64,000 nt of DNA from Octopus vulgaris (lineage: Eukaryota): positions 51,336,001-51,400,000 of the forward strand of contig OX597817.1 in the NCBI GenBank assembly GCA_951406725.2, in the 5' to 3' direction. Under the pieces are notes generated by a model that had not been told where the DNA came from, searched no databases, and was given only the letters and a program-made list of their open reading frames with translations. Positions 25,859 through 58,157 of the stretch are shown here, one piece after another; position 1 is the stretch's first letter; every line of letters begins with the position of its first letter. The translations under genes and the position numbers were made by a program.

Positions 25859-27538
<1,680 letters not shown>

Positions 27539-29063
27539 GGCGTATTTCTCGTGTTTTTGGATCCGAGACAATGGTGCATACCCTTTTAGCTAAATTGAAA
27601 GGGATATTTGTCTTGGTGTGTTTTGGGTGGCATGAACTAAAGAGGAGGTATTGTTGTGAGTCTGTAGGTTTGTGGTAGATGTCTGTTATGATTTGGTTCT
27701 TAGGTGTTTTTATAATTAGGAGATCAAGGAATGGGAGATGATGTTTGCTTAATTCCATAGTGAATTGGATGTTGGGATGTATGTTGTTTAGTATGGTTTT
27801 GAATTCCAGGAGTTTTTCATAAGGTTCTTTCCATATGATGAAACAATCATCTAAATACCTTTTCCAGTTTTCCATTAGGTAGGTGTGGAAAACATGTCCA
27901 AATTTCTGGCTTGATATTTCATAGAGTGACAGTTCGAAGTAACCCATTATGAGGTTCGCAAGGACTGGTGCAGCCTTGGTACCCATCGCAATGCCACATT
28001 TTTGACGGTAGTGTGTGTCGTCGAAGAGAAAAAATTGTTTGTCAGAATGAACTTAAGAGATTCTGTAATAAAAGACTTGTTAATGCGGTCAGGGAATGTC
28101 TCTGGGTGTTTTTCTAGCCAGAAGTCAATTGCCTCTATACCATACTCATGTGGAATGTTGGTGTAGAGGTTGATGACATCAAAGGATACCAGGAGTGCCT
28201 CCTCGTTAACTGTTTTCGGGAGGTGTTTGAGCATGTCCAGATCATCCCTAATGAAACTTTTGATGTGGGTAAGGAAAGGTTTCAAAAGGATGTCTAGGAA
28301 GTTACTCAGGCGGTGTGTTTCACAGGAGGTACCAGCCACGATGGGCCTTAGTTTTAGGTCCTCCGGTGCTTTGATGTTGATGTGGATGTCAGTGGAGAGT
28401 TTGCAGGCTTCGGTGATGTATTTGTTTTTATGGATTTTAGGAAGGCCATAAAAAAGGCTGGGCTTGCATTTGAAAATGGTGATATAATCCCTTTCCTTTT
28501 CTGTGAGTCCTTGACCGTGTTGGCGTATGAGTGTGGTGAGGTTTCTGATTGTTTTTTGCTGTTTGTAGTTGTTAATAACCTCATAGAAAATGTTATTGTT
28601 AAGCATGGAGAACACTAGGTGTTTATAAAATTCCGTGTCCATAAGGACCACAGCACTCCCTTTGTCCGCTTCTTTGATGGTGAGGTTTTTATCCAGTTGT
28701 ATGTCACGTAGGTTTTCCCATTCTTCCTTACTGAAATTGGATTTTACCTTGGTTTTGCTTGGGGTAAAGGGGAGACTCTGGATGTGTTTACAGAAATCGT
28801 CCAGTGTTTTATTTCTCCCTTTTGGTGGTAGGAAGTTGCTTTTATTTCTGATCAATGAGTCGTCCCCATTGTTGATATCTGTCAAAGCTTCTGTTAGGCG
28901 AAGTTTTCTGCAGAATTCAGAAACGTCATCCTTGACCTCCGGGGGTTGGGTGTTCTTGGGGTGGGTGTGAATTTCAAACCTCTTGCTAGGATGTTGATTT
29001 GGGTTGGTGTCAGTGTTTTGCTGGAGAGGTTTATAATTTTTGTTTTCTTATTTTGGGTCTGTG

Positions 29064-30555
29064 TTAGCGGTGGTGTTTGTATTTTTCCCCTCTGTCTAAA
29101 AAATGGTTGTTGAGGTAAGGGGTGTATTCTTTGTTAAAGTTCTGGTTGTATGTGTAGGAGTGTTTTTGGGTGGGGAGGTTGGAGGGGGGTAGGTAGTTGT
29201 CGTATTTGTGTTGGTATGGGATGCGATGGTGTAAGGATTTGTGAGAAATGCGATGGGTTTGTGGGTGTGTGTCTGGTAGATTGTATGGGGGGATGTAGGG
29301 GGGTATGTAGTTGTGGTGATTGGGTTCGTGTGGGATGTGAGGGTTTGGAGATCTGTAGGAGATGTGGTAGGAATGTGGTTGTTGGATGGGTGGACTATAG
29401 GGGGTTCGTTGGGTGGGTCTTATATGTATCGGTGTGGGTAGGATGCCTTGTTTGTTATTAGTGTGAGGGAGGGGAGCCTTGAGGGGGGATAATTTCTAGT
29501 GTATGGGAGGTTCTTGAAGGTTCTAATCGGTGGGGGAGGGGTGTTAGAGTGATTGGAAAACCAGGTTTTGTGGTGGGTCTTGTTTGAGATGTTTCGGGGG
29601 GAAAGGGTTTTTTATATGGTTGGGGGAGGTTGTGTCCTGTTAGGAGGGGGTTTGGAGAGTATGTGTATTTGAGGTGCGGTTTGGAATGGTGTTTATGGGG
29701 TACAGTGGAAGTCTGTGTTGTGGGTACTTTTATGAATGGGTTTTTGGATTTATGGTTTAATATGAATTGTGTTTCATAGTTGAGGAAGAAATCTTTGTTG
29801 TTTTCCCAGCGTTTGAGGGAGGTTCGTTCTTCCTTTTCACATTCATCTTTCCATAGTTTAATAACAAGTTCGAGGGGCTGTTCGTTGGTGTGTGAGGTTA
29901 GTTCTAGAAGTATCTCATCGTCTATTTTTGTGTATTTTTGTTCGTGGTTTTGTGCTCTGAGTTTTAGAAGTTCTACTTCGGTTTTCATTTTTTCCAATGT
30001 TAGTTTTTCTCTTAGGGAGCGTTGTTTTTCAGGTTCGTCTGGGATGTGTTTGATTTGGAATTTTCGGGGTAGTATGATAGGGGAGGAGTTTAACCATTTG
30101 TCGTAAATATCAGCTTTGTTTTGGTTTTTGAGCATGTTCCAGAAGAGAAGTTTTCTGTTGTGTAGTTTCTTAGTCCAAGTAGTGATGATCTGGTTTTTAA
30201 TGCGTTGTGCTGGGGTTGAAATGTGTTCCTTCTGTGTGTTGAGTGGTGTCTGAGGTCTCTTTGGCGTTGAATTGGTAAGTAGAGTTTTCAGTGTAGTGTT
30301 GATTTCATTTAGGTTTACATCTATCTTATCCGAAAGTAGAGTTTTCAGTGTAGTGTTGATTTCGTTTAGGTTTACATCAATTTTATCCGAAAGTTGTTGA
30401 TGATGGTTGTTTTCTGAATTGTCCCGGGATTGAAGGAGAAGTTCGTCAATTTTTTTGGAGAATGTAAGTAGATGTGTATTGAGTACTTTGAGTTCTTTTA
30501 GAATGGTCTTATTGGTGACTGTCTCTGTAAGAGTGCTCTTGTTTTTCGGAGGCAT
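29064..30555 (-). CDS. PLE upstream ORF1 (coiled-coil, Pro/His/Tyr-rich tail), frameshifted near 29460-29600
   Basis: 365-aa ATG ORF with helical K/E/L-rich heptads and a 19-aa duplication LSDKIDVNLNEINTTLKTL. A second frame is open from about 29495 (NNKQGILPTP...) to NNHFLDRGEKYKHHR* at 29064. Confidence 0.75.
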
Positions 30556-30583
30556 TCTGAATCACACGTGTGGTAGAGGGTAC

Positions 30584-32154
30584 AGATCAATAAATGGTGG
30601 GGTTGTGTTGACCGCACGTGGAGAAATGATAAGTAAGGAAAAATTTTTTTAAAAATGCAGAATGCTCAAATGAAAGAAAATTTTAATAAAATGAGAAAAT
30701 GATAAAATATATAAATATATATATTTATTCAACCGGTTTTCGTCAATGTATGACTTGTCAAGAATATTTATGTTTTAAGAAGTTTTTTTAAAAATTAGAA
30801 AAGGGGAAAAAAAGAAAATTGCAATGTTTTTTGTAAAAGAATAATGATAAAAATGTACAAAAATTAAAAAATAAGTTCTCCGATACATTGTGAGTTCGTT
30901 GTGTATCTTGAGTTTTATGGTTGTTTACCAAAAAATTACCTTGAGGTGTTAAGATCCAAAGGGATTAAGAGCATGTGATGTGTTGTGTTGTTAAATTCAG
31001 CATGTTGCAGGACAGGAAGTAGTAGTAATTGTGGTCCTGGTTCTTCAGTTCCTGTGTTGTGAGTAAGGGGAGACAACTCTTTTGAGTTCTTCAATAAAAC
31101 CCAAATTATAAAACTATCATTTTAGCTTCATTTGCATTATCTTTTTTATATAATTGCTTGTTAACTTAACTTTCAGATTTTAACACTTTATTTATATTAT
31201 TTTCTAATAATATAAAACTGCATAGACAATTGCATTTCAAATTGTCATATCATTTATAATAAAAATGATAGTAGTAACAACAACAATAGTGAAAATGATA
31301 TTTAAAGAATATAAGTTTTAGCTTGAAGTGGTGAATGCATGGTATCTTTATATATTTGTGTTAGTCCATCCATGAAGAGTGAGGTAGAGAAAGGAAGTTT
31401 GATCAACGAGGAGTTTGCATATTAAGTTGTGTTTGGAATTTTTCAATAAAGAGATTCTCCTTGTTAATTCTCTCCTGTGTGGTGATCCCGTCTTTACATT
31501 GGTAGAAGGGGAATATATAGAATTTGGGGTTTAAGTCTTTAGCACATGAGTCTAAGTGGTCACTCAGTGGAATTTGTCGGTATTCCGGGAGATTTATTTG
31601 TTCTTTATGCACCGTTACTCGTTTACGTAACGGGAGACTCGTTTGTCCCACATAATTATGTTGGCAACCAGCGCATGTGAGAACGTAGATAAGGTTCTCG
31701 GAGGAACAGGAGAAGTTAGTCTTGATTTTAAACTTCGTACCTTGTTTGAAGGTAAATTCAGAGCCTTCAAGTAGAAAGGGGCAGGTACCACAGTTTGAGC
31801 GTGCACATTTTTTTACTGTTGGGGGTGGATGTGGTGTGTGAAGTTTGGCATTTGTCAAGAGTTTTTTTAAAGATTTGTGTTGCCTTTTGCATTTGAGGAT
31901 TTTGTGTGTATTTATAATGTTTTTCATTTTTGGGTCTGTTGACAGTAGACTGAGGTTTTGTATGATTGTGGTGTATGCTTCGATATTTTTGGGGTTGTGG
32001 GTGGAAATGTATGGAAGTATTTTGAGGTTGTGTGTGGTGTTAGGTTGGGTGGTTATCAGTGTAGTGTTGTCTAGTTCTTTGGCGCGTTTTATTCCATACT
32101 CTATAAGGGTGGAGGGATATTGACGTTGTAATAGTGTTTTTTTGAGGTCTTGAA
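30584..32154. repeat. pseudo-LTR copy 2 (5'-truncated tandem copy, includes the 251-aa EN ORF 31403-32158)
   Basis: Direct repeat of 25969-27538. Confidence 0.97.
30726..30766 (-). ncRNA. hammerhead-like motif, copy 2
   Basis: Identical to 26111-26151. Confidence 0.6.
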
Positions 32155-32351
32155 ACATTGCAATTTTCTTTTTTTCCCCTTTCTAATTTTTAAAAAAACT
32201 TCTTAAAACATAAATATTCTTGACAAGTCATACATTGACGAAAACCGGTTGAATAAATATATATATTTATATATTTTATCATTTTCTCATTTTATTAAAA
32301 TTTTCTTTCATTTGAGCATTCTGCATTTTTAAAAAAGTTTTTCCTTACTTA
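32153..32351 (+). repeat. inverted partial pseudo-LTR (rc of about 26015-26213) with hammerhead-like copy 3 at 32215-32255
   Basis: Direct reverse-complement match, with a short A microhomology at the junction. Confidence 0.93.
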
Positions 32352-33559
<1,208 letters not shown>

Positions 33560-33645
33560 TTTACTTTAATACTTTGATAGGTTTCGGCCATTATTGGCCC
33601 AGGCCATGTCTAACTTAATAGCACCACCTGGTGAAGTCTTTCAAG

Positions 33646-36600
33646 TCAGAATTTGGGCACTATGGCCCACTCAAGTAGAGAGTTATTGTTTACAGAGACA
33701 TATCCGGGTGTAGGGGGTTTATCCGGGATTTCTTGAAGGAATCTGTCCAAAGACTTCTTGAACCCTATAGGGTCAGTTTCTGTTTTAATGTGTTTTGGTG
33801 TAATGTTAAAGAGAGCGGGGCCAATTGAGGTGAAATAATTGTGCCGTATTGTTGTTATGAGATGAGAGTGCGATTTTTGTTTTGGGCGGATGGCACGGGG
33901 CCCAAGCCTTGGATGTACCTTAAAGGTGATGCCAACATCATTTGGGCAATGCTGATGGAATATTTTCCACATCATGCAGATGATGTAGCGCTCACGACGA
34001 CGTTGGAGAGAATAGAGTTTTAGCTTTTCTAGCCGACCCCAATAGTCGAGGCCTGTCATGCCATCTATCTTTTTTGTGATTGCCCTTTGAGGTGCTTCAA
34101 CTTTTATGATACCTTGTATTGTGTGGGGAGACCACAGTGGACAACAGTATTCAAGGTGGGGTCGGGCAAAAGTGGAGAAGAGAAGGATAATGGTGTGGAT
34201 ATATCTCGACTGGAAAGTTCTGAGAATCCAGGAACACATTCTGCGGGCCATGTCAACTTTGGTGTTTATATGAGTGGCCCAGCTTACGTTGTTGTCCACA
34301 ATTACTCCCAAGTCTCTGATGTTGTTGGACGCCGCGAGAGTTTCACCTGAAGGAAGGGAGTATGGGAGTTTCAGGGCATCCTCTTTTCCAAAGTGGATTA
34401 GCTCAAATTTATCCTCGTTCAGCAGCATATTGTTTTTTTCTGCCCATTGGATAACAGCCAGTAGATCTGACTGAAGGCATGTCCGGTCACTCGCCTCATT
34501 TATGACCTTCTGTAGCTTGGAGTCATCTGCAAAGATTTTTATGTTGCTGTGCTTGATGATGTCATTAATGTCATTAATGTAAATGATGAAAAGAAGTGGG
34601 CCCAGCATAGTGCCTTGCGGAACGCCACTACTGACTTTGGCTGGGCTTGATTTTACCCCTTCAACTACAACATGTTGAGATCTGTCTGTCAGGAAACACT
34701 TAATCTATTTCAGTATCTTTCCAGAGACACCAATGTTGGATAGTTTTTTCAATAGGATCTTGTGATCGACCCTGTCGAAGGCCTTACTGAAATCAAGGTA
34801 GATGACATCGGTGTTGGAGCCCTCTCCCAAAGCTCTCAAAATGTCCTCAAAGTGATGCAGGAGCTGCGTTAGGCAGTCCCTTCCATTACGGAACCCATGT
34901 TGGTTGGAGATCAGCCGTCTGTTGCTTTCCAGAAATTGGGTTATTCGAGATCTCACCACCCTCTCAAATACCTTGATGATATGAGAGGTGAGTGAGATCG
35001 GACGGTAATTCACTGCAAGGGACTTGTTTCCCTTTTTGAAAACTGGGACAACAGACTGGGACAGAAGGTTTTTTGGAATATAGCCAGCATCCAGTGAGTT
35101 TCTCCACAGATTAGCAAGGGGAGATACAAGTTGGTGTCGACACACCTTCAGGACACAAGCAGGGAACCTATCGGGGCCTACTGCTGAATTGTGTTTTATT
35201 TCGTTTATCGCCGCTAAGACATCAGGGGCACTAAACGTTATGTCCGATATAGTGTGTTGGGGGTTGACATCACTGATACAGCCCAGATCGGCCATATCAG
35301 GATTGCTGAAAACAGAGCAGTATTGTTTCTGCAGTATCTCGGCCATGGATTTGGCATTATCTTGGAGAGTGCCAGTTTCGTCAATTAGAGGGCCTACAGT
35401 GGAGACAGTGACCCTGCGTTTCCTCGCAAATGAAAAGAACACTTTGGGGTTGAGTTTGATTTTTTCAATGGCCCACTTCTCCTCAGCTGATCTTTGGTTA
35501 TTGATGAGGGTCTTCATGCATTGTTGGAGGTTATATTTTTTGGATTCAAGCAGTGCGATAGCCGTCGAATGTGTGTGTTGCTGTTGGCAGTACTTTAGCT
35601 TGTTAATTTTTTTGTTTGTTCTTTTTATTTTTCTGATAATGGTTTTTCTGTTTTGGGGGATTCTGCACTTTTTGTTCACAGGTCTTGGTGGGGAGTGTTT
35701 TGCACATATGTCTGTGACGGTGTCTACAAAGATCTGCCAAGATGTTTTATGGTTGGTGGAGATGTGTGTATGTGTAAAGGACCAGTCAACATTTGATAGC
35801 TCGTTCCTGATTGCATCCCAGTTGGCTTTATGGAGATCCATGTTGTCAAATGGGTGGGCTGGAGGAAGGTCACTAGGATTAGCTTTCGGCTGGTGGAATT
35901 TCATGTTACAGAGAACCATGTCATGGTCTGAAAGAAGGGTTTTTTCCACTGTAACGTTATGTATAGTGTTAGTGTGGTTACTAAACACTAGGTCCAAAAT
36001 GTTCTGATGTCTTGGTGCAAGGACAAGTTGGGACAAGAAAAACTCATTCGTAAAGTCGAAAAGTGACTCTGCTGCTTCTTTGTCAGCGGTTGAGGCGGGA
36101 GTGCTTGGTTTCAAACAGTTTGTAGTCCAGTCAACACAGGGTAGATTGAAGTCTCCCATCATGAGTATGTTGCTAGAATGGCACTGTTGAATAAAGCACT
36201 TAATGCTGTTGAGGCATTCTTTAAAGCACAGTATGGGTGTTTGGGGTGGCCTATAGAGCCCAATTACTGTCAGGTCATTGGCTTTGTTGTGCACGGTGAC
36301 TGATTCACAGTAGCCATTGGAGAATATACTATTTCCATCTGCCGTAAATGAATCATGCAGGAAAATGGCAGTTCCACCCTTCCTCCTGCCGATACGATCC
36401 GCGCGGATGGTTGTGAAATTCTTCACTCTCACTTCGGCTTCCAAGTGGGAGTTGTCAAGGTGGGTCTCAGTGAGAATGAAGAAAGGGATGTGGTGTGAAT
36501 GGTTACCAACCCAGTCTTCAATGAATTGGACCTTCCATTTTTGTGCATTGATGGAAGGGCTGACACCTTGTGCATTGAGTAGGAATGTGGAGGTTAGTGT

Positions 36601-36760
36601 AGTGGCTGGTTTTGACTGTTGCAGGGGGCTTGGATTTTTTGTGTGTGTTAGTGGCAGCAATGTGGGGAATTGGTGCACTGGGGTAATAGCATAGGATGGT
36701 GTTGAGTGATGGCTAGAATGTTTTTGTGTATCTCTTTTGCCATGTTCAACATGGCTAAAA
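33646..36760 (-). pseudogene. LINE APE endonuclease-reverse transcriptase with an in-frame stop (probably TGG to TAG) at 34705-34707
   Basis: LLNAQG, LTETHL, GLYRPP, MGDFN, LSDH, NYRPISLTS, YLDFSKAFD, GVPQG..LGPLLF, FADD. It reads GKILK*IKCFLTDR across the stop, in frame with the 320-aa ORF. Confidence 0.93.
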
Positions 36761-37875
36761 GAATTTTCCTGCTTAGGGAGCAGTTTTTGGCTGGAGGTGT
36801 GGTTGCACTGTTGGATAGGGTTGTAGTTTCCACTTTTGTTGTTGTTGTTTTTGTGTCTTCCTGAAAAGACTGGACCAGCATTACTGCAGCATGGTGTGTT
36901 TCTATTTTTATTGTTATTCAGGTTTGTGTGTTGGCTTGAGGCCCCGTTTCTGTTTGTGCGTCGGGTCCCTGGAAGATGAGTGAAGGGACAGTCACTCAGT
37001 AGACATGTTCTCTCACGTTAGGAATACCGGCAGATTTTGGGACTCCGAGTTGTGTGTGTTTTGAATTTCGATTTACTATTTGGTGGTGTTGATGTTATTG
37101 TGGGATGCGTGCTTTGGCCTTGGCCGGTAGTGCGTCTAGTGCCGGGTAGATGCGTGAAGATGCAGTCACTATTTGTGCAGAGTCTCTGGCGCAGTGAATA
37201 GCGGCATATTTGGGGATTTCTTGTTTGTGCCGTGGGGGGTGCATTCTGCTTCCTATGTTTCTTTAAGTTTTTGTTACTGCAGTAGTATTGAGGTGGTGAT
37301 GTGGGGGAAGAGGGCAGTGGTTTCTTATTTGGTTTTCTGTCGGTATTTTTGGTGATAGAAGACGATGGTGGCAGCGGTGGTGATGATGATGATGATAATT
37401 GTGGTGGTTGCTGTGAGAGCGGTGAAAAGATACTGGCATTTAGTGAATCGTCTAGTAAGCTAGAGTTGAGGAGTGGCTGTTGTTGTTCTTGTTGCTGTGG
37501 CTGTTGTTGTTGTTGTTGTGCCTGACCGATGTCAGGGTCAGCCATTGTGCTGGGAACCAGGAGTGGCTCATTCTGTTGTTGTTGTTGTTGTGGCTGCTGA
37601 TTTTCTAGCTGTTGTTGTTCTTGAACTGTGAAAATATGTAGAAGCTTTTCATAATGGCCTCTTAACAGTTTGAAAGATACTTCGATATGTTTCAACTTGC
37701 TACGAATCTGTTTGACGGATCGTGTGTTGACCACTTGTGATGTTTTTTCGGCAATCTCATTCAAACACAAGACATTTAGATTTTCTGTTTGGGAAAGAGA
37801 GAGCCATGTGTTTATTAAAACATCAATTTCGTTATCAGACCAATTTCGTCTGTTGCAGGCCTGCAAGTTAGTCAT
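36761..37875 (-). pseudogene. LINE ORF1-like region: Myb/SANT-like N-terminus, polyQ/S/P, two CCCH-type fingers, with an in-frame TAA at 37018-37020
   Basis: WSDNEIDVLINTW...RSVKQIRSKLKHI; ICRYSLRQRLCTNSDCIFTHLPGTRRT and ICRYS*RERTCLLSDCPFTHLPGTRRT. Confidence 0.75.
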
Positions 37876-38168
37876 GTTTGTTTTTCTTTTGTTTGTTTTC
37901 CTTTTGATTTTTGAAAAAATATATATTCTTTCTTGGGAGTTAAAGAAGTGTATATATATATAAATGTTCTCTCTTAAGGGTGTGAATTTTTGATTATTTG
38001 GTTGTTTGAGGATATTAAAAGAAAAACAGTTGTATATAACAATTTGTAGTTAAATGAAAACGTACTTACGGGTTTGTAGGCAAACACGTGGTTACAAATA
38101 TATATATATTTAAGGTCAGTTAGTTTTGAAGCTGTGTAGCTTGCTACTGACTTGGGAGAGAAACAAAT

Positions 38169-38465
<297 letters not shown>

Positions 38466-38494
38466 TAGATATATATATATATATATATATATCT

Positions 38495-38876
<382 letters not shown>

Positions 38877-44530: not shown

Positions 44531-44544
44531 ATACATATGTGGTT

Positions 44545-45135
44545 TGTCCGGGACTGTTTGAAGGAATTTGTCCAAAGACCTCTTGAATTTTGTGTGGTTA
44601 GTTTCTGTATTGACGTGTCCTGGTGTAATGTTGAAGAGAGCGGGTCCAATTGAGGTGAAATAATTGTGCTGTATTGTTGTTATGAGATGCGATTTAGATT
44701 TTTGCTTTGTCGAATGGCACGGGGTCCAAGTCTTGGATGTATTTTGAAGGTGATACCAACATCATTTGGACAGTACTGATGGAATATTTTCCACATCATA
44801 CAGATAATGTAGCGTTCACGGCGTCGTTGGAGTGAATACAGTTTCAGCTTTTCCAGTCGACCCCAGTAGTCGAGGTCTGACATGCCATCTATCTTTTTCG
44901 TGATTGACCTTTGGGGGGCTTCAACTTTCATAATATTCCGTTTTGTGTAGGGAGACCACAGTGGACAGCAGTATTCAAAGTGAGGTCGGGCAAAATTGGA
45001 GAAGAGAAGGATAATGGTATGGGAATCTCTCGACTGGAAGGTTCTGAGAATCCAGGAACACATTCTGCGGGCCATGTCAACTTTGCTGCTTATATGTGCA
45101 GCCCAGCTTATGTTGTTGTCCACAGTTACTCCCAA
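44545..45135 (-). mobile_element. diverged 3' fragment of the same LINE family as 33558-38208
   Basis: [36 protein letters not shown]...[10 protein letters not shown] aligns with the 33646-34608 ORF. Confidence 0.93.
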
Positions 45136-54944: not shown

Positions 54945-54992
<48 letters not shown>

Positions 54993-54994
54993 TT

Positions 54995-57488
54995 CAGACA
55001 CTCAGACACTAGACCACGCCCAATAAGAGTAATCTTTTCTTCCGATCAGGAGGCTTCAACCTTCTGAACAGAGCTTAGATGCATGCCTGGGAGGACCCCA
55101 ATATGGGTTTTCGCGAGGAATACTCACTGAGAGAGAGAATTCGCCGGAGAAACCTAATATCCGAACTGAAGATGAGAAAACAGATGGGAGAGAAGGGTTT
55201 ACGCATCCAAGCTGGACAAATAATCAAGTCCTACCTCTGGTCGCATGCTGTAGTGCTGACAGGGAAAGTGAATCGAGAGCGAATCGAAGTAAAGTAGATA
55301 CCCCCGTCAACGATGCTATCTCTGATACCCCTTATTCTGCTTGTTCCCCAATTCACGCCCCTTAAACTCCACAACCCAGCATCCTGCTCCTTATTTCCAA
55401 AGTTCAGCGAACTATTTACACTGGCCATGCGTGATTCCCCTGATGTGATAGCTATCACCGAGACTTGGCTGACTCCTGCAGTAAAGGACTCGGAAATCCA
55501 CCTACAGGGCTACGCCCTCTTCAGATGTGACAGAGAAAAAAGGTAAGGTGGAGGTGTTGCTGTGTATGTTAAATCTGATCTCAAACCGCCCAGCGGTATT
55601 GTACCCACTAATCCTCAACCTACAACAAAATTCGATGCCGTCTATTGCAAGCTGAGCCTATCCGGGTTTTGCCTGCCCGTGTTAGCTGTCTACAGACCGC
55701 CTTTTGCCGACCCCCAGGACGATGCTCATTTACTCGAAGCGATAAGATTCGTTTCAGCTTCTCATGACTGTTTTATATTAGGAGATTTCAACGCTCCCAC
55801 GATCGATTGGCCCGCATCAATTTGTACATCATCTTCCCGGTTCGGCCAGGCCCTTCTTGACGTGGCTGAAGATTGTTTTCTATCGCAACATGTTGAATAT
55901 CCGACAAGGCATCGGTCTGGGCAGCAGCCATCTATGCTGGATTTGGTATTCTCCCGCTATCGAAGATCAGTGTCAGACGTATATGTGTGCGTCCCTCTTG
56001 CCAAGAGTGATCATGCGGTTCTGAAGTTCGTCATGCACACAACTTTTTCTACGCCCACGACTACTTCGCTGCCACGTAGAGTCTTCTCTGCAATTAAACT
56101 TGAAAGGGAGTCGCCAAGACCCGCTTAACTACCGACCGGTTTCCTTTACATCAATAATCAGCAAGATGTTCGAAACCATCCTTAAGAAAAGTATGATGCT
56201 CCACCTCCAAAACACAGCCTCTATCTCTGATTCCCAACACGGCTTCATGCCGAAGAGATCATGCTTGACCAACTTACTGGTAATGGAAGAATTGGTGACG
56301 CGCATCCTCGATGACAGTGATGCTGTTGACATCGTTTTATTGGACTTTGCCAAAGCTTTTGACTCGGTAAACCACCGCCTATTACTTGTCAACCTTCAAG
56401 CATATAGTTTCCATCCGGAAATTGTACGATGGGTTGCTGCCTTCCTCTCAGATCGCTCCTTCCAAGTCCAAGTTAATGGTTCGCGGTCCGACGTCTCCAG
56501 TGCCAGCAGTGGCGTGACTCAAGGTTCAGTGCTTGGGCCCTTATAGTTCTTAGTCTTCATAAATGACTTGCCCGACGACCTCACGCAACACACCCTTCTA
56601 TTTGCCGACGATGTCAAACGGGTTGCTCCTGGCGGTGATATAGAGGATCTTCATCGATGCCTCCACCAAATTTGGAGATGGTCTAACGAATGGGATCTGT
56701 GTCTGAACGTCTCAAAGTGCTGTCATCTGCCTGTTGGCTCTCCTCCTGCAACTCAACTTGATTTCGAGCCGGGTCGTCTGCTGCTGGAGAGGACCGACCA
56801 GGTAAATGACCTGGGTATCTTGGTGGATTCCTCCTTTTCGCCTTCGGCCAGTGCGTCCATGCTGCCAACAAAGCACGCGGAGTTCTGTTCTTGATTCGAC
56901 GGTCATTCGGAATGCTAAAGGCAGCCATATTCCTACTGCTCTATGTCACGCTGGTGAGCCCCATATTGGAGTACGGGATTCAAGCCTCTTCTCCTTATCT
57001 CCTCAAAGACATACAGCATCTCGAAAGAGTCCAGAAACTGGCTACCCGCATGGTTCTTGGTCTCAAGAATTTGTCTTATGAAGAAAGGCTGAATACGCTC
57101 GACCTTTATTCTCTAGAAAAACGACGACGCCGTGGTGATCTCATTCTTGCTCACATCATAAGCGGAAAGTGTAACCTCTCGAAAGAGCTGTTCTTCACTC
57201 CTATTCCAGAGCGTCGGCTGCGGGGTCATTCCGAAAAGCTCTATCTGCGACGATTTCATCTCAATCGAAGGAGAGGGGCTTTCTCCGTCCGGGTTGCGGA
57301 TCCGTGGAATAAGCTGCCGGACGAGATAGTGAAGATGCCGACGACCGTTCGGTTCAAAGTCTCCCTTGACCACAAGTGGCCTGAACTCTTTATATGAACA
57401 CCACCCTGTACATAACTCCATGTCCCCCTACATGGCCTTGCTTTTTGCTTTTTGAGCCAAAAAACAAAAAATTAACTAACTAACTAAC
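54995..57488 (+). mobile_element. GC-rich CR1-like LINE, 5'-truncated and internally deleted
   Basis: ORF1 tail (RPIRVIF...RERIRRRNLISELK), APE (IAITETWL, VYRPP, LGDFN, SDH), a junction near 56100 straight into KGSRQDPLNYRPVS, RT (LDFAKAFD, QGSVLGPL, FADD), C-terminus RRRRGDLI...FSVRV..WNKLP, and a (CTAA)n tail; several stops and frameshifts. Confidence 0.92.
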
Positions 57489-58157
57489 ATATATTTATAT
57501 TCTTTCACTTGTTTTAGTCATTTGACAGCAGCCATGCTACACCACCACCTTAGGTATATATACGTGTGTATGTGTGTGTTGTGCGTGTGATTTTTATATC
57601 ACGGTTATAGCGATATAATTTTGGATAAAGATAATAACAATAATTCTAGGATGGAATTTCGAAACATTTAATACATCGCTAGCTACGCGCGTTTCCACAA
57701 GACACGTGATTTTGACATCAGAGTCGGTATATTTTGGGGTAGTATAGTTCGTATTATCCGTGGGCATCTAATTAATCATGCATTATTGGATGTTTAAATG
57801 TTTAAAATTTTCAGAAATGCTTCAAATTTTGAAATGTTATAAATGATGAAAGCTTTGCCCGACGGGCGCATTTCCTTTTACATATCAGGCAGCTCTGAAA
57901 CGTACGTATTAAACACTTTCAAAATATCACTATTTCTTTTGAATTCTCTATACAGATGTGACAGGACCAGGATTGGTCGGAGCATTCGTATTGTGCCTTC
58001 TTTTTCCCGGCTCGTCTGCACGATAGTCCTGCGGTCGTCTTCAGAGGCGGTTGTAGCCTGAAAGACGATGAGATGACAGGCTTCAAAATTAGTTTCAGGA
58101 GCAGACCGCACTTGGTGACCAACGCAGCTGACACCGAGGGTATAATTCTATATCACA

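What the first reader, a model, noticed from the sequence alone, without database searches (positions are those of the whole stretch)
33646..37875. LINE whose Myb/SANT-polyQ-2xCCCH ORF1 shares one 1410-codon frame with APE-RT
Seen: hand translation keeps 37875 to 33646 in a single frame broken only by two stops. The TAA at 37018 aligns with Leu in the first CCCH repeat, and the TAG at 34705 sits at a conserved Trp. The N-terminus WSDNEIDVLINTW...RSVKQIRSKLK resembles Myb/SANT trihelix domains, followed by polyQ/S/P and two C-x8-C-x4-C-x3-H fingers. Established: LINE ORF1s usually carry RRM, CCHC, PHD or esterase domains. Inference: an unusual ORF1 architecture, possibly with a DNA-binding module relevant to (TA)n targeting.
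Basis: partly seen in the sequence, partly recalled or inferred. Interest (0 to 1): 0.7.

Follow-up and report, generated by a model that had tools for sequence, protein, structure and literature searches.

The report
Frameshifting LINE with Myb-CCCH ORF1
This jumping gene (a LINE) has two overlapping genes that only look like one here because this copy is two letters short at a ribosome-slippage motif that its relatives all keep, so its copying enzyme is likely made retrovirus-style, as a fusion to an unusual Myb-like and zinc-finger first protein.

Summary
The 1410-codon frame, both stops, the polyQ tract and two CCCH motifs are there. The N-terminus passes Pfam's Myb/SANT-like cut-off narrowly (28.7 vs 27 bits). 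The single frame is a quirk of this copy. The long family contigs in three runs have two more T at 36757-36760. That gives U_UUU_UUA, with ORF1 ending at about 36648 and ORF2 in the -1 frame, with no Met before its endonuclease. All 19 informative relatives (about 11 families) have the same -1 overlap and carry U_UUU_UUA, G_UUU_UUA or G_GAU_UUU at the matching ORF1 position. 0 of 83 other ORF1 Phe codons sit in such a motif. Best reading: ORF2 is made by -1 ribosomal frameshifting as an ORF1-ORF2 fusion (inferred, about 0.75). No shared stimulatory RNA structure was found. Relatives have PHD plus three CCCH fingers; Myb seems particular to this family. (TA)n targeting by Myb is unsupported. 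The scan noted -1 sites in other CR1 LINEs before (e1-9568866, e1-8041403, e1-7350016), and a review states one for Dictyostelium TREs. New variant of a known kind.

The parts
38200..38518 (.). (TA)n array on the 5' side of the element, followed by (AG)n up to 38866
37876..38209 (-). Likely 5' UTR; near-identical contigs in three runs reach 38081-38185
37654..37851 (-). Myb/SANT-like three-helix domain (aa 9-74 of ORF1)
   Evidence: Pfam PF13837 28.7 bits vs cut-off 27, E 1.7e-6; model has helices 14-28, 35-48, 54-92; no significant structural match
37285..37623 (-). polyQ / S / P low-complexity linker; no listed contig bridges 37469-37604
37150..37206 (-). CCCH motif 1 (C-x8-C-x4-C-x3-H), like the third finger of related ORF1s
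   Evidence: profile of 8 relatives, 21 bits, E 2e-7 within a small set of frame pieces; Pfam zf-CCCH_2 only E 0.11
36976..37032 (-). CCCH motif 2, a duplicate of motif 1, broken in this copy by TAA at 37020-37018
36756..36762 (-). Candidate -1 slippery site: U_UUU_UUA in the family; this copy has two T fewer, which joins ORF1 to the ORF2 frame
   Evidence: tables 4, 7, 8; relatives
36700..36755 (-). Predicted RNA structure right after the site: a 7-bp hairpin at 36755-36739, or a longer stem-loop starting 4 nt after the site; not shared by relatives
   Evidence: z -3.2 for each; mean z near 0 across 12 families
36648..36755 (-). True 3' end of ORF1 in the family (35 codons plus stop, starting with a likely amphipathic helix), out of frame in this copy; overlaps ORF2
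   Evidence: a helix profile from relatives did not detect it
35896..36591 (-). APE endonuclease; first Asn at aa 434; the first Met after aa 111 is at aa 572
34300..35031 (-). Reverse transcriptase core, broken in this copy by TAG at 34707-34705
33557..33645 (-). 3' UTR with a predicted stem-loop (similar in L076, L079) and a short repeated tail
32353..33558 (.). (TA)n array on the 3' side
44541..45135 (-). Fragment of a related subfamily (87% identical to the ORF2 3' part), next to an (ATAC)n array

Best explanation
This is a young, broken copy of a two-ORF APE-type LINE, two T short at the point where ORF1 and ORF2 overlap, and the family likely makes its endonuclease-reverse transcriptase by a programmed -1 ribosomal frameshift at U_UUU_UUA. 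Shown: other copies have the longer T run, so ORF1 runs on for 35 codons and stops, while ORF2 opens in the -1 frame with no Met before the endonuclease; relatives share this layout. Inferred: most ribosomes make ORF1p (Myb-like, polyQ, two CCCH fingers, C-terminal helix). A minority slip just before that helix and make a Myb-CCCH-APE-RT fusion without it, in the manner of Gag-Pol. The CCCH fingers would bind RNA and the Myb-like domain DNA or chromatin, taking the place of the PHD finger of relatives; neither activity was tested.
For:: the long family contig in each of three runs (X1, X2, X7; 2.4-2.5 kb, 5-7 other letters) carries 'AA put in behind 36756', as do 3 contigs of X11; the best 120 of 1065 ORF2 homologues are 814-1147 aa, none long enough to hold a whole ORF1, although lengths up to 2466 were searched; 19 of 20 metagenome loci reach the junction. 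All 19 have an upstream ORF in the ORF2+1 frame that overlaps ORF2 by 180-297 nt. At the Phe that opens the ORF1 C-terminal helix, 6 have U_UUU_UUA, 2 have G_UUU_UUA and 11 have G_GAU_UUU. That Phe is TTT in 19 of 19, against 32 TTT to 51 TTC elsewhere in ORF1. 18 of 19 have no Met between the site and the first endonuclease Asn, 73-118 codons away. Controls (11 family representatives): 0 of 83 other ORF1 Phe codons lie in such a heptamer, and 0.13% of 3073 other ORF1 positions open a -1 run of 70 codons or more. L020, a distant member of the same RT clade with a CCCH ORF1, has A_AAA_AAC in its overlap. U_UUU_UUA (HIV), G_GAU_UUU (pea enation mosaic virus) and A_AAA_AAC are named as -1 shift sites in PMC5009743.
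Against: No protein or ribosome data. No shared stimulatory structure: mean folding z was -0.9 to +0.5 in all windows around the site over 12 families. Pairing with the element's own 3' end was no better than with other elements' ends (-14.3 vs -13.8 kcal/mol, 6 elements). Under the strict X_XXY_YYZ rule only 6 of 19 loci (5 of 11 families) qualify; I allowed GGA and GUU as first triplets after seeing the data, and picked the anchor Phe by hand. The G_GAU_UUU families probably form one subclade (three of them group at 98%), so they are not independent. In X11 the contigs with the two extra letters carry only 301 of 75,543 depth; a 3-nt indel fixed in the other three runs is equally low there (198 of 76,040), so X11 cannot give a share. 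The P/Q-rich overlap may have few -1 stops by composition. L080 has a Met 5 codons before the endonuclease. The link between Myb and CCCH parts rests on this window alone, as no listed contig bridges the polyQ tract.
Confidence: 0.73

Rival explanations
1. ORF2 is made as a separate protein by termination-reinitiation or non-AUG initiation near the ORF1 stop, and the heptamer only reflects the Phe-Leu start of a conserved helix.
For: AUG-independent initiation is considered likely for mammalian L1 ORF2 (PMC5009743 passage). The site coincides with a conserved protein motif, and no shared stimulator was found.
Against: It does not explain TTT in 19 of 19, or G before GAT TTT in 11 of 11, or TTA after TTT in the other 8 of 8. 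It also does not explain why the -1 frame stays open across the whole 180-297 nt overlap yet closes within 1-17 codons upstream of the site in 18 of 19 loci.
Confidence: 0.13
2. The family, or a live subfamily, really has one fused 1410-codon ORF.
For: The window reads as one frame. Single-ORF CR1 and L2 subgroups with an N-terminal PHD are described (PMC4120745). X11 does not settle the share of copies.
Against: The long family contigs of X1, X2 and X7 all carry the two extra letters; no fused form among the best 120 homologues or the 19 loci; this copy also has two private stops and a private 3-nt loss.
Confidence: 0.05
3. RNA polymerase slips on the T run and adds a base, so that some transcripts carry a fused frame.
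For: A run of six T in this family and in 6 of 19 loci.
Against: 11 of 19 loci have only four T, inside G_GAU_UUU, and L020 has an A run instead; the shared feature is the codon-phased heptamer, not a long homopolymer.
Confidence: 0.05
4. The T run followed by AG is a splice acceptor that brings an upstream AUG into the ORF2 frame.
For: T run plus AG in the window family and in L062, L068, L080.
Against: The first AG lies 5, 7, 14, 16 or 26 nt after the Phe codon start, in two different phases, and the G_GAU_UUU loci are purine-rich upstream.
Confidence: 0.03

Closest known systems
CR1-lineage LINEs with a PHD-bearing ORF1 (Metcalfe & Casane 2014, PMC4120745; e.g. subgroup CR1_2, PHD only, type V)
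   Same: APE plus RT in ORF2, no RNase H hit, short repeated 3' tail; relatives of the window element have a PHD-like finger in ORF1.
   Different: That paper never mentions CCCH, Myb or SANT. The window family has Myb-like plus a duplicated CCCH finger and no PHD. Whether its clade is CR1_2 could not be tested: no labelled reference sequences were available.
Dictyostelium TRE5-A / TRE3-A
   Same: [quoted passage not shown]
   Different: Different host kingdom and ORF2 ending in a zinc finger; here an animal element with a long overlap and alternating heptamers. I did not see the evidence behind the TRE statement.
Retroviral Gag-Pol -1 frameshifting (HIV U_UUU_UUA) and umbravirus G_GAU_UUU
   Same: Same heptamers, in the same codon phase, between an abundant upstream protein and a rare polymerase fusion (PMC5009743).
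   Different: No shared downstream stem-loop or pseudoknot was found across relatives; no LTRs, protease or integrase; slippage not measured.
Myb/SANT-like (Myb_DNA-bind_4, MADF-type) proteins, including the PIF/Harbinger DNA-binding protein
   Same: Pfam PF13837 match; three predicted helices with a long third helix; remote hits are multi-repeat PF13837 proteins.
   Different: Here it heads a LINE ORF1. Its closest hits are three short unnamed proteins (P0122, P0123, P0125) whose context is unknown. The PIF/Harbinger link comes from search listings and recall only.

Membership tests
APE-type non-LTR retrotransposon (LINE) | APE endonuclease upstream of RT in ORF2 | tested here: met
   PF14529, PF03372, PF00078
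APE-type non-LTR retrotransposon (LINE) | Many dispersed copies, depth falling from 3' to 5', simple-repeat 3' tail | tested here: met
   14,453 contigs laid in X11, summed depth falls towards the 5' end (depth is no copy number); tail
CR1 group (CR1, L2, Crack, Daphne, Kiri, Rex1) | No RNase H and no C-terminal zinc knuckle in ORF2 | tested here: met
   No such Pfam hit on the C-terminal 352 aa at E up to 1
CR1 clade proper | RT groups with labelled CR1 references | not testable with these tools
   Only unlabelled loci were available. The window sits in a 28-row clade (SH-aLRT 99, quick tree) with CCCH-ORF1 elements, apart from esterase-type and 2A/PHD-type loci. The label CR1 is from recalled motifs.
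Single-ORF CR1/L2 subgroups (type IIIA) | One continuous ORF in the family | tested here: not met
   Family contigs have two more T at 36757-36760; 19 of 19 relatives have two frames
Programmed -1 frameshift site | X_XXY_YYZ-type heptamer in ORF1 phase, -1 frame open downstream, conserved | tested here: met
   strict form in 6 of 19 loci, known-type variant G_GAU_UUU in 11, G_UUU_UUA in 2
Programmed -1 frameshift site | Stimulatory RNA structure a few nt downstream | tested here: inconclusive
   Present in this family (z -3.2), not shared; pseudoknots were not modelled
Programmed -1 frameshift site | Trans-frame protein is made | not testable with these tools
   Needs a reporter, ribosome profiling or proteomics
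Myb/SANT-like domain (PF13837) | Pfam gathering score | tested here: met
   28.7 vs 27 bits on aa 1-95; 25.7 on the longer piece
Myb/SANT-like domain (PF13837) | Structural match to solved Myb/SANT domains | tested here: inconclusive
   Model pLDDT 71.6 from 4 sequences. Best Foldseek rows are homeodomains at E 2-6; best VIA Z 6.3, rmsd 3.0, 67 aligned.
CCCH zinc finger (Pfam zf-CCCH families) | Pfam gathering score | tested here: not met
   zf-CCCH_2 13.6 bits vs 25.8; the C-x8-C-x4-C-x3-H pattern is present and conserved in relatives
Target-specific ((TA)n) LINE | Most copies flanked by the target repeat | tested here: inconclusive
   This copy has TA on both sides; some loose ends show TA; perfect (TA)8+ covers 4.4% of the window; no genome held

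The most novel reading that the evidence does not exclude
A widespread clade of animal LINEs makes a Gag-Pol-like ORF1-ORF2 fusion by -1 frameshifting, placed just before ORF1's C-terminal helix, so the endonuclease-RT carries CCCH RNA-binding fingers and a swappable N-terminal reader. Relatives use a PHD finger; this family swapped in a Myb/SANT domain that steers insertion into (TA)n arrays.
Probability: 0.2. Interest if true: 0.85.

Novelty: new variant of a known kind. Interest (0 to 1): 0.63.

Why it matters
How two-gene LINEs translate ORF2 is still unsettled (passages). This clade offers a short, conserved and directly testable answer: three or four different slippery heptamers at one homologous spot, in families whose endonuclease segments are only 21-70% identical. 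A fusion would also tie ORF1's domains physically to the integration enzyme, which makes ORF1 domain swaps (PHD to Myb) a possible route to new target preferences. CCCH and Myb are absent from the ORF1 classification I could read. For annotation, it is a warning: a two-letter loss in one T run makes a two-ORF LINE look like a single-ORF element.

Tried and rejected
No whole genome is held, so copy numbers and flanks could not be counted. A search for longer homologues (1349-3850 aa) found none; weak evidence. A word-based search with the Myb region found nothing at E up to 1. Viral contigs gave 5 weak RT loci, not used. L061 is a chance match to the DNA pattern and L072 starts after the junction; both were left out of the counts. 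The single-sequence model of aa 1-285 was poor (pLDDT 50.7) and matched only generic helical bundles. No Myb/SANT or trihelix chain stood out in any fold search; one Myb chain appears at E 8.6. The PDB sequence search with the 4-sequence Myb alignment gave nothing below E 0.09. A helix profile from 11 relatives did not detect the window's ORF1 C-terminal piece. Long-range pairing of the site with the 3' end (lead from e1-9772336): in the window the 20 nt after the site pair with 33623-33603 at -19.7 kcal/mol, better than 57 of 57 other windows of the element, and L062 is similar in one setting. But own and foreign pairings were equal over 6 elements in 8 window settings, and the partner lies in a local 3' stem-loop; rejected as a general mechanism. 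No RNA holder is on record as RNA, so nothing is said on expression. No Atlas look-alike result was obtained for the N-terminus. No complex prediction was run. Paper searches that found no report of CCCH or Myb in a LINE ORF1, or of a slippery site in CR1-type LINEs: (listings only, open-licence library; Repbase and Dfam not available).
Full report
Observation. The - strand from 37875 to 33646 reads as 1409 codons plus TGA, with internal stops only at codon 286 (TAA) and codon 1057 (TAG); the other five frames have 34-101 stops. Pfam finds APE and RT, and nothing else on the C-terminal piece. Two C-x8-C-x4-C-x3-H motifs sit at aa 224-242 and 282-300. (TA)n arrays lie on both sides.

The single frame is copy-specific. 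No genome is held, so I laid contigs from 4 of the 20 runs that hold the element. The long family contig in each of X1, X2 and X7 differs from the window by only 5-7 letters and 5 gap letters over 2.4-2.5 kb. All three carry two more T in the run at 36757-36760, and three contigs of X11 do too. All four runs read CAA (Gln, not Leu) at the first stop and TGG (Trp) at the second. X11 cannot give a share: the contigs with the extra letters hold 301 of 75,543 depth, and a 3-nt indel fixed in the other runs is just as low there. With the longer run the site is U_UUU_UUA in ORF1 phase. ORF1 then continues for 35 codons and stops at about 36648, and ORF2 lies in the -1 frame. The first Met in that frame is aa 572, 138 codons past the first endonuclease Asn. 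Whether the two-letter loss is a mutation or an assembly error is open.

Relatives. The best 120 of 1065 ORF2 homologues are 814-1147 aa long, with no fused form. A DNA pattern for the endonuclease motif, which 74 of 121 stored proteins match, returned 20 metagenome loci; 19 reach the junction and fall into about 11 families. All 19 have an upstream ORF in the ORF2+1 frame, overlapping ORF2 by 180-297 nt. At the Phe that opens the ORF1 C-terminal helix, 6 loci have U_UUU_UUA, 2 G_UUU_UUA and 11 G_GAU_UUU. The codon choices go together: TTT in 19 of 19, G before GAT TTT in 11 of 11, TTA after TTT in the other 8 of 8. 18 of 19 have no Met in the ORF2 frame over the 73-118 codons to the endonuclease Asn. 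Many do have a Met just after that Asn, which would cut off the first conserved strand (inference from established APE anatomy, recalled). With the same permissive rule, 0 of 83 other ORF1 Phe codons are in such a heptamer, and 0.13% of 3073 other positions open a -1 run of 70 codons or more.

Caveats on that count. I chose the anchor Phe by hand and widened the rule to GGA and GUU after seeing the data; the strict rule is met by 6 of 19 loci. The G_GAU_UUU families are probably one subclade. A quick RT tree (67 rows: the window, 17 of the 120 homologues and 49 locus rows; SH-aLRT only, careful search unfinished) puts the window in a 28-row clade at 99%. That clade includes L020, which has a CCCH ORF1 and A_AAA_AAC in its overlap. 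Among 24 genome-collection loci with an endonuclease hit, three outside the clade (L008, L012, L044) also show a heptamer in a -1 overlap, two (L007, L016) have the upstream ORF in the other frame without one, and the rest are truncated, broken or single-ORF types.

Stimulator. The window family has a 7-bp hairpin directly after the site and an alternative stem-loop starting 4 nt after it (z -3.2 each). Across 12 families the mean folding z is near zero in every window. Pairing with the element's own 3' end looks good in the window but is no better than foreign pairings over 6 elements. So no shared stimulator is shown. A low slip rate might be enough for a protein needed in small amounts; that is inference.

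ORF1 domains. The first 95 aa pass the Pfam cut-off for Myb_DNA-bind_4 (28.7 vs 27 bits). Among 1.84 billion representatives, 6 hit at E up to 0.001: three short unnamed proteins with the same domain (two followed by Gln runs, one itself passing Pfam) and three multi-Myb proteins. A model from 4 sequences has three helices (pLDDT 71.6); fold searches are inconclusive, with homeodomains on top but not significant. In 8 relatives' ORF1s, two of them incomplete at the N-terminus, Pfam finds PHD in 5 (one above cut-off) and Myb in none; all 8 show three CCCH motifs. The window's motif matches their third finger (21 bits) and is duplicated. So CCCH is a clade trait and Myb appears to replace PHD in this family. 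No listed contig bridges the polyQ tract, so the Myb-CCCH link rests on the window, although the Myb part is near-identical in contigs of three runs.

(TA)n targeting. This copy has TA on both sides. Loose-end consensus rows show TA next to 3' ends of related subfamilies (75 contigs in X11, agreement 0.59; 6 in X7) and next to short 5'-cut copies (4 in X1). Perfect (TA)8+ covers 4.4% of the window, and the 5 relatives with a full 3' end show no TA flank (for L062 the contig ends inside the tail). This fits a preference in this host but does not show it, and nothing ties it to Myb.

Mechanism. Shown: two overlapping frames, no AUG for ORF2, a conserved phased heptamer. Inferred: most ribosomes make ORF1p; some slip -1 just before its C-terminal helix and make Myb-CCCH-APE-RT. 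This copy's frame is that fusion less one residue, with two private stops. Confidence 0.73. Rivals: reinitiation or non-AUG start 0.13, true single ORF 0.05, polymerase slippage 0.05, splicing 0.03.

What is known. PMC4120745 (passages, section 6, supplement list, and part 2 of supplement 1; supplements 2 and 3 with alignments not read and may bear on clade identity) lists RRM, CCHC, PHD, Tnp22 and esterase ORF1s and never mentions CCCH, Myb or SANT. PMC11203168 and PMC13343379 (term searches only) do not mention Myb or CCCH either, and the latter has no 'frameshift'. PMC5009743 (passages) names the heptamers and describes no -1 frameshift for LINE ORF2 in the passages seen (the text is held only to 300,000 characters). 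PMC5911963 (passages) states that TRE5-A and TRE3-A need a -1 frameshift. PMC5405496 (passages) suggests +1 frameshifting or reinitiation for Paramecium elements. PMC1965478 and PMC5006619 (passages) added background only. Searches listed no paper on this ORF1 or on slippery sites in CR1-type LINEs; Repbase and Dfam could not be checked. The scan's own notes report -1 sites in other CR1-type LINEs, none on this ORF1. I had formed my reading before those look-ups; the notes are unchecked and are not counted as evidence.

Verdict. New variant of a known kind; interest 0.63.

Noticed in passing
window 26787-32182 (-): Penelope-like pieces: RT plus GIY-YIG at 26787-28052 and a second GIY-YIG piece at 31403-32182 (Pfam E about 7e-4 and 3e-4, below cut-off), with long ORFs between; looks like a partial tandem next to the LINE.
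   Followed up: no
window about 54990-57700 (+): A second, decayed APE-RT LINE of another lineage (28-35% identical), broken by frameshifts and starting right after an (AT)n array.
   Followed up: partly
L012 about 480-530: An esterase-like-ORF1 LINE has U_UUU_UUA one codon before its ORF1 stop, followed by what looks by eye like a strong hairpin; ORF2 is in the -1 frame but has a Met 14 codons on.
   Followed up: partly
L008, L020, L044 junctions: A_AAA_AAC or A_AAA_AAU in the ORF1/ORF2 -1 overlap of three more distant LINEs.
   Followed up: partly
L062 3-2750 and L080 upstream ORFs: Very long ORF1s (over 900 aa) with an acidic N-terminal region and two helical-plus-PHD units before the CCCH trio.
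   Followed up: no
window 33598-33630; L076 and L079 3' UTRs: A 3' stem-loop framed by GGUGG and UGGCC keeps its fold with different stem letters in three families; likely the RT recognition signal.
   Followed up: partly
window 36755-36738 and 33623-33603: The bases right after the slippery site can pair with the 3' UTR stem-loop 3.1 kb away (-19.7 kcal/mol); not general among relatives.
   Followed up: yes
L006-L060: Dozens of prokaryote genome-collection records hold eukaryote-type LINE sequence, most on short contigs and most likely contamination; L015 and L028 show a 2A-like motif (recalled) before a PHD.
   Followed up: no
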